Shown here: positions 51,070 through 64,000 of the stretch, piece after piece
Layout of the letters: each line of letters begins with the position of its first letter
Position numbering within the stretch: position 1 is the stretch's first letter
DNA from: Escherichia coli
Lineage (GTDB): Bacteria; Pseudomonadota; Gammaproteobacteria; Enterobacterales; Enterobacteriaceae
Length of the DNA: 64,000 bases
Direction: 5' to 3' (one strand)
NCBI RefSeq assembly: GCF_041886205.1
Contig: NZ_CP169029.1
The notes under the pieces: generated by a model
The model's input: only the letters and a program-made list of their open reading frames with translations
Databases searched by the model: none
Told to the model about the DNA's origin: nothing
Program-made: the position numbers and the translations under genes

Positions 51070-51382
51070 TGCGCTGGCGGCAGAAACAATGCCGGATGCG
51101 ACGCCAGCGCGTCTTATCCAGCCTGCGCGAGGACATAAATGATGTAATTTCAGCAAGTTATCTCGACATCCTCTACCTGCAAGTCAAAGTGCTTATTCAC
51201 GATCAATCCCAACCACATCGATTTTCTATATAACCAGAATCCCCCAAAATCATTCTCCTGCTAACGAATTCACATTTGTGGTTGTATAATTATATGCAAC
51301 AATTACATAACATTTAATTCACCAAAAAACAAACAAAGCAATCGACAGAAAACATCAGGTTTATGGCAGGAGTAATATTCAC

Positions 51383-61806: not shown

Positions 61807-62688
61807 ATGGATCTGCGCCGTTTTATTACGCTTAAAACCGTGGTGGAAGAGGGTTCCTTTTTGCGTGCTTCGCAAAAATTGTGCTGCACACAATCGACGG
61901 TGACTTTTCATATTCAGCAGCTTGAGCAGGAGTTCTCGGTACAGTTGTTTGAGAAAATTGGTCGACGGATGTGCCTTACCCGCGAGGGGAAAAAGCTGCT
62001 GCCGCACATCTATGAACTTACCAGAGTGATGGATACGCTTCGTGAGGCTGCCAAAAAAGAGTCGGATCCGGACGGGGAACTACGCGTTGTTTCGGGCGAA
62101 ACGCTGCTCTCTTACCGAATGCCGCAGGTGTTGCAGCGTTTTCGGCAACGCGCACCAAAAGTACGTTTATCGTTGCAGTCACTGAACTGTTACGTGATCC
62201 GTGATGCGCTACTGAATGATGAGGCCGATGTCGGAGTTTTTTATCGCGTAGGGAATGATGATGCTCTGAATCGACGAGAGTTGGGTGAACAATCACTGGT
62301 GCTGGTGGCTTCACCGCAAATTGCAGATGTCGATTTTACTGAGCCGGGAAGACATAACGCCTGTAGCTTTATTATCAATGAACCACAATGTGTCTTCCGG
62401 CAGATATTTGAGAGCACGCTGCGCCAGCGACGGATCACGGTGGAAAACACCATTGAGCTTATAAGTATCGAAAGCATCAAGCGTTGTGTCGCGGCAAATA
62501 TCGGGGTCAGTTACTTACCGCGTTTTGCGGTGGTAAAAGAGTTGGAGTGCGGAGAATTAATTGAATTGCCTTTTGGCGAACAGTCGCAGACCATTACGGC
62601 AATGTGCGCTCACCATGCCGGAAAAGCGGTTAGCCCGGCGATGCACACTTTTATTCAGTGTGTTGAAGAGAGTTTTGTGGCTGGATAA
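61807..62688 (+). CDS. yfiE: LysR-family transcriptional regulator YfiE
   Basis: N-terminal HTH (ITLKTVVEEGSFLRASQKLCCTQSTVTFHIQQLEQE) plus LysR substrate-binding domain; divergent from eamB. Confidence 0.8.
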   Translation: MDLRRFITLKTVVEEGSFLRASQKLCCTQSTVTFHIQQLEQEFSVQLFEKIGRRMCLTREGKKLLPHIYELTRVMDTLREAAKKESDPDGELRVVSGETLLSYRMPQVLQRFRQRAPKVRLSLQSLNCYVIRDALLNDEADVGVFYRVGNDDALNRRELGEQSLVLVASPQIADVDFTEPGRHNACSFIINEPQCVFRQIFESTLRQRRITVENTIELISIESIKRCVAANIGVSYLPRFAVVKELECGELIELPFGEQSQTITAMCAHHAGKAVSPAMHTFIQCVEESFVAG

Positions 62689-62746
62689 AAATAATGTCGG
62701 GATTAAACCCGGCATTTAACTTGTCGACAAAGTGCGCTTTATTCAT

Positions 62747-62844
62747 GCCGGATGCGGCGTGAACGCCTTATCCGGCCTACAAGATCGTGCAAATTCAATA
62801 TATTGCATGAGCCACGTAGGCCTGATAAGCGTAGCGCATCAGGC
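62747..62844. repeat. REP/BIME palindromic elements (two units)
   Basis: GCCGGATGCGGCGTGAACGCCTTATCCGGCCTAC and GTAGGCCTGATAAGCGTAGCGCATCAGGC are canonical REP units in opposite orientation. Confidence 0.6.
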
Positions 62845-62896
62845 AGTTTTGCGTTTGCCAGCACTTTTAATACCAGGCTTAAACCCGGCATTGAGA

Positions 62897-64000
62897 TTAC
62901 TCTTCTGTCGTTTGCGGTGGCACGCCCGTTCCGCTCGGTTTACGGCGCTTACCAATATTTTTGGTGTCGCGATGGCGTTTTTTCACCCGCGGCTTCTCTT
63001 TCTCTTTAGCTTTTTTCTTCTCGGCGCGTTTTGCCAGTACTTTCTTCGATGGCTTGCCGGTCTGCTTCTCGCTTGGCGCACGCGTTTTCGGGCGTAACTC
63101 ATCAATTACGCGAGCTTTAATTGGCTCTTCAATATAGCGACCAACTTTGCCCAGCAGCAGATGGTCATGGGCTTCTACCAGCGAAATTGCGGTGCCTTTA
63201 CGACCGGCGCGCGCGGTACGTCCGATACGGTGCAAATAAGTATCGCCACTGCGCGGCATATCGAAGTTAAAGACGTGGCTGACGTCAGGAATGTCGATAC
63301 CGCGCGCGGCAACATCGGTTGCAACCAGTACGTTTACGCGACCTTCGGTCAAACGCTTGATCGCTTCGTTACGCTTGCCTTGTACCATCTCACCTTCGAG
63401 ATAGCAGTTGTTGATGCCCGCTTCGCGCAGCCAGTTTGCCAGCTCATGCACACGTTCACGCTTACGCACAAACACAATTGAGCGGGTCGCTTCCGGCTGT
63501 TTTAACAGATGCACCAGCAACGCGGTTTTATGCTCAAGATCATCGGCGCGGTAATACCACTGATGAATTTTTTTGCGCTCACGGGTGGACGGATTGGCAG
63601 AAACTTCCACCGGGTCTTCCAGCAGACGCTCGGCAAAGTCCTGAATCGCATCGCCTTCCAGCGTTGCCGAAAAGAGCAGGGTCTGTTTACGCCAGCGCGT
63701 TTCGCCAGCAATATGTTCGATATCCTGAGCGAAGCCCATATCCAGCATACGGTCTGCTTCGTCGAGGATCAGCGTTTCAACCGCGCGGCAATCGAAGTTC
63801 TCTTCTTTTATGTATTGCAGCAGACGTCCGGTCGTGGCGACCACGATGTCCTGATTTTCGCTGAACACTTCCGCGTGGTTCATATAGGCTACGCCGCCGG
63901 TGATGGTGGCGATATCCAGATGCGTATGTTTCGCCAGTTCGCGGGCATGATCGGCTACCTGCATCGCCAGCTCGCGAGTTGGGGTGAGGATCAAAATACG
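62897..64000 (-). CDS. srmB: DEAD-box RNA helicase SrmB, C-terminal part (N-terminus beyond window end)
   Basis: DEAD box (ILDEADRML), SAT, HRIGRTARAG motifs; basic C-terminal tail; ORF runs off the window. Confidence 0.9.
   Translation of the reverse strand, partial: RILILTPTRELAMQVADHARELAKHTHLDIATITGGVAYMNHAEVFSENQDIVVATTGRLLQYIKEENFDCRAVETLILDEADRMLDMGFAQDIEHIAGETRWRKQTLLFSATLEGDAIQDFAERLLEDPVEVSANPSTRERKKIHQWYYRADDLEHKTALLVHLLKQPEATRSIVFVRKRERVHELANWLREAGINNCYLEGEMVQGKRNEAIKRLTEGRVNVLVATDVAARGIDIPDVSHVFNFDMPRSGDTYLHRIGRTARAGRKGTAISLVEAHDHLLLGKVGRYIEEPIKARVIDELRPKTRAPSEKQTGKPSKKVLAKRAEKKKAKEKEKPRVKKRHRDTKNIGKRRKPSGTGVPPQTTEE

What the first reader, a model, noticed from the sequence alone, without database searches (positions are those of the whole stretch)
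62703..62892. REP pair flanked by a 14-bp direct repeat between yfiE and srmB
TTAAACCCGGCATT occurs exactly twice (62703-62716 and 62879-62892) and brackets about 160 bp containing two canonical REP units in opposite orientation. The arrangement resembles an inserted BIME with a duplicated flank, or a duplicated terminator arm, in the convergent gap between yfiE and srmB.
Basis: seen in the sequence. Interest (0 to 1): 0.25.

Follow-up and report, generated by a model that had tools for sequence, protein, structure and literature searches.

The report
BIME-1 insertion that duplicated a terminator hairpin
The repeat marks where a 151-bp mobile REP element (BIME-1) landed on the terminator hairpin shared by yfiE and srmB and copied the whole 25-bp hairpin to both sides; the same signature at many other BIME-1 copies gives a concrete rule for where these elements insert.

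Summary
TTAAACCCGGCATT occurs only at 62703-62716 and 62879-62892. It is the conserved part of a 25-nt direct repeat (62692-62716 and 62868-62892, 21/25 identical).

The repeat brackets a complete 151-bp BIME-1: terminal motif, Y REP, linker with an IHF-like site, Z1 REP, terminal motif.

About 47% of 5,425 complete E. coli genomes carry this arrangement. Sampled genomes without it are exactly 176 bp shorter and have one perfect hairpin, AATGCCGGGCTTAAACCCGGCATT, in a 32-bp gap. Salmonella, a Citrobacter-like genome and divergent Escherichia are also empty, so the insertion is derived. In the empty state the hairpin plus T-run matches a terminator consensus for srmB.

The pattern is general. 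In 64 distinct BIME-1 loci from Escherichia, Pseudocitrobacter and relatives, 26 carry a locus-specific stem-loop duplicated directly against both element ends, against about 1% expected. These duplications run 11-36 nt and track hairpin size. Two more E. coli loci (fdnI-yddM, gloC-aspC) show filled and empty alleles with a single hairpin in the empty site.

The likely mechanism is structure-directed staggered integration at the hairpin base followed by gap repair. This is inferred, not shown.

The element is known. I found no description of the hairpin duplication in the papers I could read.

The parts
61807..62688 (+). yfiE (LysR-family regulator) coding sequence; stop codon TAA at 62686-62688
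   Evidence: ORF list; RefSeq annotation of identical or near-identical genomes
62683..62691 (-). A-run on the + strand, which is the U-tract (AUUUUUAUCC) on the srmB strand. It followed the single hairpin in the empty allele. In this window it lies beyond the BIME-1, next to the left hairpin copy.
   Evidence: Terminator-like hit on the - strand of the empty allele and of Salmonella; sequence
62692..62716 (.). Left copy of the duplicated target hairpin, TAATGTCGGGATTAAACCCGGCATT. Stem 62693-62701 pairs with 62708-62716; loop 62702-62707. It differs from the empty-site hairpin at two positions (stem C>T, loop C>A).
62703..62716 (+).
62717..62867 (+). Complete 151-bp BIME-1 insertion; absent as a block, together with one repeat copy, from empty alleles
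   Evidence: The 176-bp presence/absence difference. Paralogues at other loci match positions 5-147 or 5-151 at 86-93% identity.
62717..62746 (+). Left terminal motif of BIME-1 (TAACTTGTCGACAAAGTGCGCTTTATTCAT). The family consensus is CAGATTGCTGACAAAGTGCGCTTTGTTCAT. Its first 15 nt are an inverted repeat of the right end.
   Evidence: Alignment with paralogues; consensus of 64 loci, 12 of the first 15 nt matching the reverse complement of the right end
62747..62780 (+). Y-type REP (GCCGGATGCGGCGTGAACGCCTTATCCGGCCTAC)
   Evidence: Inverted repeat I3; invariant in paralogues; Y/Z1/L nomenclature as summarised in PMC3333891
62781..62815 (+). L linker carrying the IHF-like motif (AAATTCAATATATTGCA)
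   Evidence: Rfam ES036/CssrF hit at 62781-62823, 49.9 bits against a gathering score of 37.6. The linker is conserved in most of 132 pattern hits. IHF binding comes from the literature and was not tested here.
62816..62845 (+). Z1-type REP (GTAGGCCTGATAAGCGTAGCGCATCAGGCA), inverted relative to Y
   Evidence: Inverted repeats I1 and I5
62846..62867 (+). Right terminal motif of BIME-1 (GTTTTGCGTTTGCCAGCACTTT). The family consensus is ATTTTGCGTTTGTCATCAGTCTC.
62868..62892 (.). Right copy of the duplicated target hairpin, TAATACCAGGCTTAAACCCGGCATT. Two G>A changes in the left arm become G.U wobbles in the srmB-strand RNA.
62879..62892 (+).
62897..64000 (-). 3' part of srmB (DEAD-box RNA helicase); stop codon at 62897-62899; the gene runs off the window end

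Best explanation
A 151-bp BIME-1 integrated at the base of the single GC-rich stem-loop that convergent yfiE and srmB share. BIME-1 is a non-autonomous, nearly palindromic mobile element: inverted terminal motifs, Y REP, IHF-type linker, Z1 REP. In the empty state the stem-loop plus its T-run matches an intrinsic-terminator consensus for srmB. The insertion duplicated the whole 25-bp stem-loop, giving hairpin / BIME-1 / hairpin.

Shown: (1) the insertion is derived; (2) the duplicated segment is the entire target hairpin; (3) the same geometry recurs at many other BIME-1 copies, with a duplication length that follows the size of each local hairpin.

Inferred: the two target strands were cut on opposite sides of the stem-loop, each strand at the equivalent position relative to its own hairpin (extruded cruciform or single-stranded hairpins). 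The element ends were then joined, and gap-filling copied the hairpin on each side. The enzyme is unknown. The REP-associated Y1/HUH transposase (TnpA_REP, also called RAYT) is the obvious candidate. The cut polarity is not established.

Consequences: each gene now has a hairpin copy next to its stop codon. The U-tract that completed the srmB terminator now lies on the far side of the element, so the BIME-1 probably becomes part of the 3' UTR. After insertion each copy acquired transitions that keep it better folded in the RNA of the adjacent gene. That last point is only weakly supported.
For: Repeat and anatomy.

Presence/absence of exactly one repeat period (176 bp): 2,524 of 5,425 genomes hold at least 80% of the 701-bp query; sampled others span 525 bp. 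Empty alleles carry one perfect palindrome in a 32-bp gap.

Polarity: Salmonella (17-bp gap), a Citrobacter-like genome (18-bp gap) and divergent Escherichia (32-bp gap) are all empty and keep the same hairpin core ATGCCGGG...CCCGGCAT. The empty hairpin cannot be made by a single crossover between the two present copies. An empty allele exists with the same yfiE 3'-end variant as the filled allele (L135/L136).

Single origin: six sampled filled alleles share all four substitutions.

Generality: 26 of 64 distinct BIME-1 loci have a flank-to-flank repeat above the 99th percentile of 2,000 mismatched pairings (binomial p about 4e-35). These repeats are stem-loops. The left copy ends exactly at the left terminal motif in 14 of 26 loci, and the right copy begins exactly at the right terminal motif in 17 of 26. 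Length is 11-36 nt, median 21. They reach 0-5 nt beyond the outermost G:C pair, about equally on both sides. 21 of 26 align better as direct than as inverted repeats.

Independent filled/empty pairs with a single hairpin in the empty site: fdnI-yddM (651 vs 474 bp) and gloC-aspC (651 vs 480 bp).

Terminator nature: hairpin plus T-run hits on the srmB strand in the empty E. coli allele and in Salmonella.

Strand-asymmetric folding of the two copies, in kcal/mol: left copy -12.8 on the + strand and -9.3 on the - strand; right copy -6.4 and -13.0.
Against: No transposition event was observed and no enzyme was tested. 38 of the 64 loci fall below the repeat threshold, although many of them show a decayed or partial second copy, or a hairpin at one end only.

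Known IS200/IS605-type Y1 transposition makes no target duplication (PMC3333891). An IS200C sitting at the fdnI-yddM hairpin duplicated nothing. A RAYT mechanism would therefore have to differ from the characterised one.

The published TnpA_REP cleavage sites (C|T next to iREPs and in linkers) do not obviously coincide with the BIME-1 termini defined here.

A test for strand-specific C>T changes that would have fixed the cut polarity was inconclusive.

The subfunctionalisation reading rests on three stem substitutions (chance about 1 in 8). It is also complicated because the srmB-proximal copy has lost its U-tract, and the simple scan finds no terminator-like site in the filled window.
Confidence: 0.8

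Rival explanations
1. The filled arrangement is ancestral. Empty alleles arose by deletion of the BIME-1 plus one repeat copy through recombination or slippage between the 25-bp direct repeats (the 'excision of a whole BIME-1' described for E. coli isolates).
For: Direct repeats of 25 bp can mediate precise deletion. At fdnI-yddM the unit (BIME plus hairpin) has been tandemly amplified through its repeats, so the repeats are recombinogenic. At gloC-aspC, E. albertii and a divergent E. coli are also filled, so loss may contribute at that locus.
Against: Salmonella, a Citrobacter-like genome and divergent Escherichia are all empty at yfiE-srmB. The empty hairpin is a perfect palindrome that would need several crossovers to be assembled from the two present copies. 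Even if some empty alleles are secondary losses, the duplication itself still has to be explained.
Confidence: 0.05
2. Two separate events: the terminator hairpin was first duplicated in tandem (or re-created afterwards under selection for termination), and a BIME-1 happened to lie between the copies.
For: The Escherichia yfiE 3' end (TTGCCGGGATAA) looks like an older partial copy of the hairpin's left arm (ATGCCGGGCTTAA). Small local duplications therefore do occur here.
Against: Apart from rare IS-disrupted alleles, only two length classes were seen among sampled genomes (525 and 701 bp). No hairpin-hairpin allele without a BIME turned up. The repeat copies abut the element ends to the nucleotide at many loci in several genera, and three empty sites each have exactly one hairpin. 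Independent coincidences at 26 of 64 loci are not credible.
Confidence: 0.04
3. An ordinary transposase made a fixed 14-bp target duplication (TTAAACCCGGCATT). The extra similarity to its left (TAAT..C.GG.) is coincidence or came with the element.
For: Only the 14-mer is identical between the two copies.
Against: Each copy's left part matches the empty-site hairpin at 9 of 11 positions, and the two copies differ from it at different positions. Other loci show perfect duplications of 16-30 nt that each span a whole stem-loop. The length is therefore not fixed.
Confidence: 0.03
4. The repeat is a chance match in GC-rich palindromic intergenic DNA.
For: Short two-copy repeats are often chance matches.
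Against: 0 of 100 shuffles gave two copies. The repeat period equals the indel length seen across thousands of genomes.
Confidence: 0.01

Closest known systems
BIME-1 (also called RIB or RIP): Y REP, L linker with IHF site, Z1 REP, in E. coli and relatives
   Same: Same parts in the same order and orientation. [quoted passage not shown] It is 86-93% identical to other BIME-1 copies over nearly its full length.
   Different: Nothing about the element itself differs. What is added here is that the conserved unit extends 30 nt and 22-23 nt beyond the REPs to inverted termini, and that a duplicated target hairpin directly abuts those termini.
BIME presence/absence polymorphism in natural E. coli isolates (Bachellier et al. 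1997, Genetics; enrichment of BIME-1 in strain-specific 'loops', PMC1187871)
   Same: A whole BIME-1 is present in some strains and precisely absent in others.
   Different: Those reports, as far as I could read or recall them, call the events excisions. Here outgroups show the empty state is ancestral at this locus. I could not read the 1997 paper, so I cannot say whether it noted flanking repeats.
REPIN-RAYT / TnpA_REP system (Nunvar 2010; Bertels and Rainey 2011; Ton-Hoang 2012)
   Same: Two inverted REPs form a long hairpin and are proposed to be mobilised in trans by a single-copy Y1/HUH transposase that recognises DNA hairpins.
   Different: The published models involve single-strand excision and integration without target duplication and give no target rule. 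The 2012 paper calls the mechanism unknown, and a 2026 preprint assumes semi-random insertion. The hairpin-length duplications seen here are not predicted by those models.
Bacterial MITEs with terminal inverted repeats and target-site duplications (e.g. Correia, ERIC/IRU)
   Same: Short, non-coding, with inverted termini (12 of 15 nt), flanking direct repeats and filled/empty alleles.
   Different: MITE duplications have a fixed short length set by the transposase. Here the length varies from 11 to 36 nt and equals the local stem-loop.
IS200/IS605-family elements, and (from my own knowledge) group IIC introns, which insert beside DNA hairpins or terminators
   Same: They target the 3' side of a terminator-type hairpin. 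An IS200C occupies the same fdnI-yddM terminator in some strains.
   Different: These elements insert without duplicating the hairpin (for IS200C; family property).

Membership tests
BIME-1 | One Y REP and one Z1 REP in inverted orientation | tested here: met
   Y at 62747-62780 and Z1 at 62816-62845 are inverted (I1/I3/I5) and identical to the paralogues' REPs. Definition taken from PMC3333891 and PMC1187871.
BIME-1 | Long conserved L linker (about 35 nt) carrying an IHF-binding consensus | tested here: met
   The 35-nt linker contains AAATTCAATATATTGCA and matches Rfam ES036 above its gathering score. The same motif occurs in most of 132 pattern hits. Actual IHF binding was not tested.
BIME-1 | Single unit per locus, not a tandem array | tested here: met
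   One unit in the window.
BIME-1 | [quoted passage not shown] | tested here: met
   It lies between the stop codons of convergent yfiE and srmB.
MITE-type non-autonomous transposon | Terminal inverted repeats | tested here: met
   The consensus ends CAGATTGCTGACAAA and the reverse complement of the right end, GAGACTGATGACAAA, match at 12 of 15 positions. The window copy's left end is a diverged version (TAACTTGTCGACAAA).
MITE-type non-autonomous transposon | Target-site duplication, with a single copy in the empty site | tested here: met
   Three loci have filled and empty alleles. The length is variable, which is atypical for this family.
MITE-type non-autonomous transposon | A cognate transposase that recognises the ends | not tested
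   No transposase was sought or matched to the termini.
REPIN-RAYT system | REP doublet able to fold into one long hairpin | tested here: met
   The Y and Z1 arms and the terminal motifs are mutually complementary.
REPIN-RAYT system | Mobilisation by the genome's RAYT (TnpA_REP) | not testable with these tools
   This needs genetics or biochemistry. The published in vitro cleavage sites were not matched to the termini found here.
Intrinsic (Rho-independent) terminator, for the duplicated hairpin | GC-rich stem-loop immediately followed by a U-tract on the transcribed strand | tested here: met
   Met for srmB in the empty E. coli allele and in Salmonella. Not met on the yfiE strand. Not met by either copy in the filled window, because the insertion separated the srmB-proximal copy from the U-tract.
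Intrinsic (Rho-independent) terminator, for the duplicated hairpin | Termination activity in vivo | not testable with these tools
   This needs 3'-end mapping or reporter assays.

The most novel reading that the evidence does not exclude
BIME-1 elements (enterobacterial REP doublets) do not insert semi-randomly. They integrate at the base of intrinsic-terminator stem-loops, with each DNA strand cut at the equivalent side of its own hairpin. Gap repair then duplicates the entire hairpin and rebuilds a terminator on the far side of the element. This would be a structure-defined, variable-length target duplication not described for any bacterial transposon. It would also be the first in vivo target rule for REP/BIME mobility.
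Probability: 0.45. Interest if true: 0.8.

Novelty: new variant of a known kind. Interest (0 to 1): 0.6.

Why it matters
REP/BIME elements are the most abundant repeats in E. coli, yet how they insert has been open for about 40 years. The 2012 biochemical study calls the mechanism unknown, and a 2026 preprint still assumes semi-random insertion.

A reproducible footprint turns this into a testable problem. The footprint has three parts: insertion at terminator hairpins, a duplication equal to the hairpin, and precise element termini.

It also suggests why BIME-1 sits at the 3' ends of genes, how it can land on a terminator without abolishing termination, and how it becomes part of 3' UTRs.

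For this locus it predicts that about half of E. coli strains, K-12 included, have altered 3' ends for srmB and yfiE.

Tried and rejected
1. Chance repeat: rejected by shuffles.

2. A donor locus carrying the same hairpin: the insert's closest paralogues (fepA-entD, fdnI-yddM) share only the BIME-1 itself, not the flanks.

3. Other BIME-1 copies in the window for comparison: none found, only a weak REP-like match near 51089.

4. Orientation of the element relative to the A-run or T-run of the target: no bias, 12 against 10.

5. Inferring cut polarity from strand-specific C>T changes in the two copies: left copy C>T 3 and G>A 2; right copy C>T 2 and G>A 4. Inconclusive.

6. Linking the clustered yfiE 3'-end differences to the insertion: rejected, because an empty allele (L135/L136) carries the same yfiE variant.

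7. Prior art: seven full-text searches and twelve papers read found no description of hairpin or terminator duplication flanking BIME-1. Bachellier 1997, Gilson 1991 and Boccard and Prentki 1993 are not held, so earlier description cannot be excluded.

8. MG1655 RefSeq annotation: no repeat feature is listed at this site.

9. The BS-04 allele with a roughly 90-nt poly-T run inside the Z1 REP was treated as an assembly artefact.

Full report
**Observation.** TTAAACCCGGCATT occurs only at 62703-62716 and 62879-62892 in the window, even when one mismatch is allowed. Chance expects 0.05 matches, and no shuffle out of 100 gave two. The repeat is in fact 25 nt long. The copies are 62692-62716 (TAATGTCGGGATTAAACCCGGCATT) and 62868-62892 (TAATACCAGGCTTAAACCCGGCATT). 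They are 21/25 identical and 176 bp apart. Each copy is a stem-loop, and the 14-mer is its loop plus right arm. The repeat lies between the stop codons of convergent yfiE (61807-62688, +) and srmB (stop at 62897-62899, -).

**What lies between the copies.** Positions 62717-62867 (151 bp) form a complete BIME-1:
- a 30-nt left terminal motif;
- a Y REP (62747-62780);
- a 35-nt L linker with the IHF-type motif (62781-62815), which matches Rfam ES036 at 49.9 bits against a gathering score of 37.6;
- a Z1 REP (62816-62845);
- a 22-nt right terminal motif.

In genomes that lack this insert, the best match to the 151 bp is another BIME-1, at fepA-entD or fdnI-yddM. Those matches cover positions 5-147 or 5-151 at 86-93% identity. 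The inserted block therefore coincides with the boundaries of the repeated family. The consensus of 64 loci shows that the two ends are inverted repeats: CAGATTGCTGACAAA against the reverse complement GAGACTGATGACAAA, 12 of 15 matching.

**Population test.** Of 5,425 complete E. coli genomes with a match, 2,524 hold at least 80% of a 701-bp query across the site. In an evenly spaced sample of the ranking, the others span exactly 525 bp, which is 176 bp less. Three empty alleles (ATCC 25922, an O157:H7 strain and strain 50579417) have a 32-bp gap with one perfect palindrome, TAATGCCGGGCTTAAACCCGGCATT. Each copy in the filled allele differs from this palindrome at two different positions. The whole 25-bp hairpin was therefore duplicated, and a single crossover between the present copies cannot regenerate the empty sequence. 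Six filled alleles, K-12 included, share all four substitutions. They differ only at one position of the right copy: CCCGG here, and CCTGG in K-12-like strains, where the change restores a base pair. That indicates a single insertion event.

**Polarity.** All outgroups examined are empty: Salmonella (17-bp gap, with the yfiE stop codon inside the loop), a Citrobacter-like genome (18-bp gap) and divergent Escherichia (32-bp gap). All keep the hairpin core ATGCCGGG...CCCGGCAT. One empty allele (L135/L136) carries the same yfiE 3'-end variant as the filled allele, so that nearby polymorphism is unrelated to the insertion. The insertion is derived.

**Nature of the target.** In the empty E. coli allele and in Salmonella, the hairpin followed by ATTTTTATCC or TTTTTATCTT on the - strand scores as a terminator-like site for srmB. 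In the filled window the scan finds no such site. The srmB-proximal copy has lost the U-tract, which now lies beyond the BIME-1 next to the left copy.

**Generality.** The closest paralogue, at fdnI-yddM, is also bracketed by a perfect 27-nt duplicated stem-loop. I therefore scanned one genome per species for Y-L-Z1 units. This yielded 89 BIME-1 with usable flanks, representing 64 distinct loci in E. coli, E. albertii, E. whittamii, another Escherichia species and Pseudocitrobacter.
- Aligning the 45 nt that abut each end, 26 of 64 loci exceed the 99th percentile of 2,000 mismatched left/right pairings. About 0.6 loci are expected, giving p of about 4e-35.
- The repeats are locus-specific GC-rich stem-loops, usually with an A-run before the left copy and a T-run after the right copy.
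- The left copy ends exactly at the left terminal motif in 14 of 26 loci. The right copy begins exactly at the right terminal motif in 17 of 26.
- Length is 11-36 nt, median 21. It follows the size of the local hairpin and reaches 0-5 nt beyond the outermost G:C pair, about equally on both sides.
- 21 of 26 align better as direct than as inverted repeats.
- Many loci below threshold show a decayed or partial second copy, or a hairpin at one end only.

Two further E. coli loci give independent filled/empty pairs with one hairpin in the empty site. These are fdnI-yddM (651 vs 474 bp) and gloC-aspC (651 vs 480 bp).

**Mechanism.** The following points are shown:
- The insertion is derived.
- The target is a terminator-type stem-loop.
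- The duplication equals that stem-loop.
- The element termini are precise.
- The duplication is symmetric about the hairpin dyad.

The rest is inferred. The two strands are cut on opposite sides of the stem-loop, which are close in space if the palindrome is extruded or single-stranded. The element is joined and the gaps are filled. A fixed-stagger transposase does not fit the variable length. The REP-associated Y1/HUH transposase is the natural candidate because it recognises DNA hairpins. However, the characterised Y1 pathway makes no duplication. The mapped TnpA_REP cleavage sites (C|T near iREPs and in linkers) do not obviously match the termini. An IS200C at the same fdnI-yddM terminator duplicated nothing. 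An attempt to infer cut polarity from strand-specific C>T changes was inconclusive. I put the core reading (insertion with whole-hairpin target duplication) at about 0.9 and the specific staggered-cut model at about 0.5.

**Consequences at this locus.** In predicted RNA folds (kcal/mol) the left copy is more stable on the yfiE strand (-12.8 against -9.3). The right copy is more stable on the srmB strand (-13.0 against -6.4). The undivided hairpin gives -16.3 and -17.2. All three stem substitutions are transitions that give G.U in the adjacent gene's transcript. This suggests RNA-level constraint, but it would happen by chance about one time in eight. More generally, a transcript from either side first meets a hairpin without a U-tract, then the BIME-1, then a hairpin with the U-tract. 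The element would therefore be carried into the 3' UTR while a terminator is rebuilt downstream.

**Comparison with what is known.** The element is a canonical BIME-1. It is present in K-12, and whole-BIME-1 presence/absence among isolates has been reported before. I found no description of flanking hairpin duplication or of a terminator target rule in seven full-text searches and twelve papers. The 2012 TnpA_REP study calls the mechanism unknown. A 2026 preprint assumes semi-random insertion. Three key older papers are not held, so earlier description cannot be excluded.

**Verdict.** The locus itself is an ordinary polymorphic BIME-1. Its footprint, shown here to be general, is the interesting part.

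Noticed in passing
L137, L006, L138, L139 (E. coli fdnI-yddM gap): This locus has four states: empty (one hairpin); filled (hairpin / BIME-1 / hairpin); doubled (three hairpins and two BIME-1 that share locus-specific variants, i.e. tandem amplification through the flanking repeats); and an IS200C inserted right after the hairpin's T-run in an otherwise empty site, with no duplication.
   Followed up: partly
L146 (empty) and L147 (filled), E. coli gloC-aspC gap; also L084 and L023: This is a third polymorphic BIME-1 with a duplicated hairpin (AGCCCGC...GCGGGC). E. albertii and a divergent E. coli are also filled, so here the insertion may be old and some empty alleles may be secondary losses.
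   Followed up: partly
L140 and L141 (yfiE-srmB gap of strains LH09-a and Yu5): Between yfiE and srmB, where the match to the window breaks off inside the BIME-1, strain LH09-a carries an IS621 (IS110-like) and strain Yu5 a frameshifted IS3-family element. This fits the known preference of such IS for REPs.
   Followed up: no
window 62781-62823: The Rfam family ES036 (CssrF sRNA) matches above its gathering score, but the match is simply the L linker of BIME-1. The family looks like a model of the repeat rather than a unique sRNA gene. Weaker naRNA4 hits fall on the REPs.
   Followed up: no
window 62670-62716; L129-L132: In Escherichia the yfiE 3' end (TTGCCGGGATAA) resembles an older tandem copy of the hairpin's left arm plus stop codon (ATGCCGGGCTTAA). 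In Salmonella the yfiE stop codon lies inside the hairpin loop. The last four yfiE codons are polymorphic in E. coli (ESFVAG* against ECFLPG*).
   Followed up: partly
proteins P0016-P0028: Some E. coli YfiE entries are 341 aa instead of 293, at 96-98% identity over 92% of the query. This suggests alleles with a different or extended terminus.
   Followed up: no
L029-L063 (Pseudocitrobacter faecalis and a Pseudocitrobacter MAG): Most BIME-1 copies with perfect flanking hairpin duplications come from Pseudocitrobacter. This suggests recent bursts of insertion in that genus.
   Followed up: no
L008 positions 505-600 (strain BS-04): A run of about 90 T interrupts the Z1 REP at yfiE-srmB. It is probably an assembly or polishing artefact.
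   Followed up: no
L076 (262-bp contig labelled Desulfosporosinus sp. OT): This tiny contig carries a typical enterobacterial BIME-1. It is most likely contamination of that assembly.
   Followed up: no
L011 (E. albertii), L044 (Pseudocitrobacter), L078 (Kosakonia): These loci carry tandem arrays of three or four Y-linker-Z units at a spacing of 110-150 bp. The E. albertii array has BIME-1-type linkers, so BIME-1-like units are not always single.
   Followed up: no
window 51089-51124: A weak REP-like match (81% over 36 nt) to the Y REP region of the insert.
   Followed up: no
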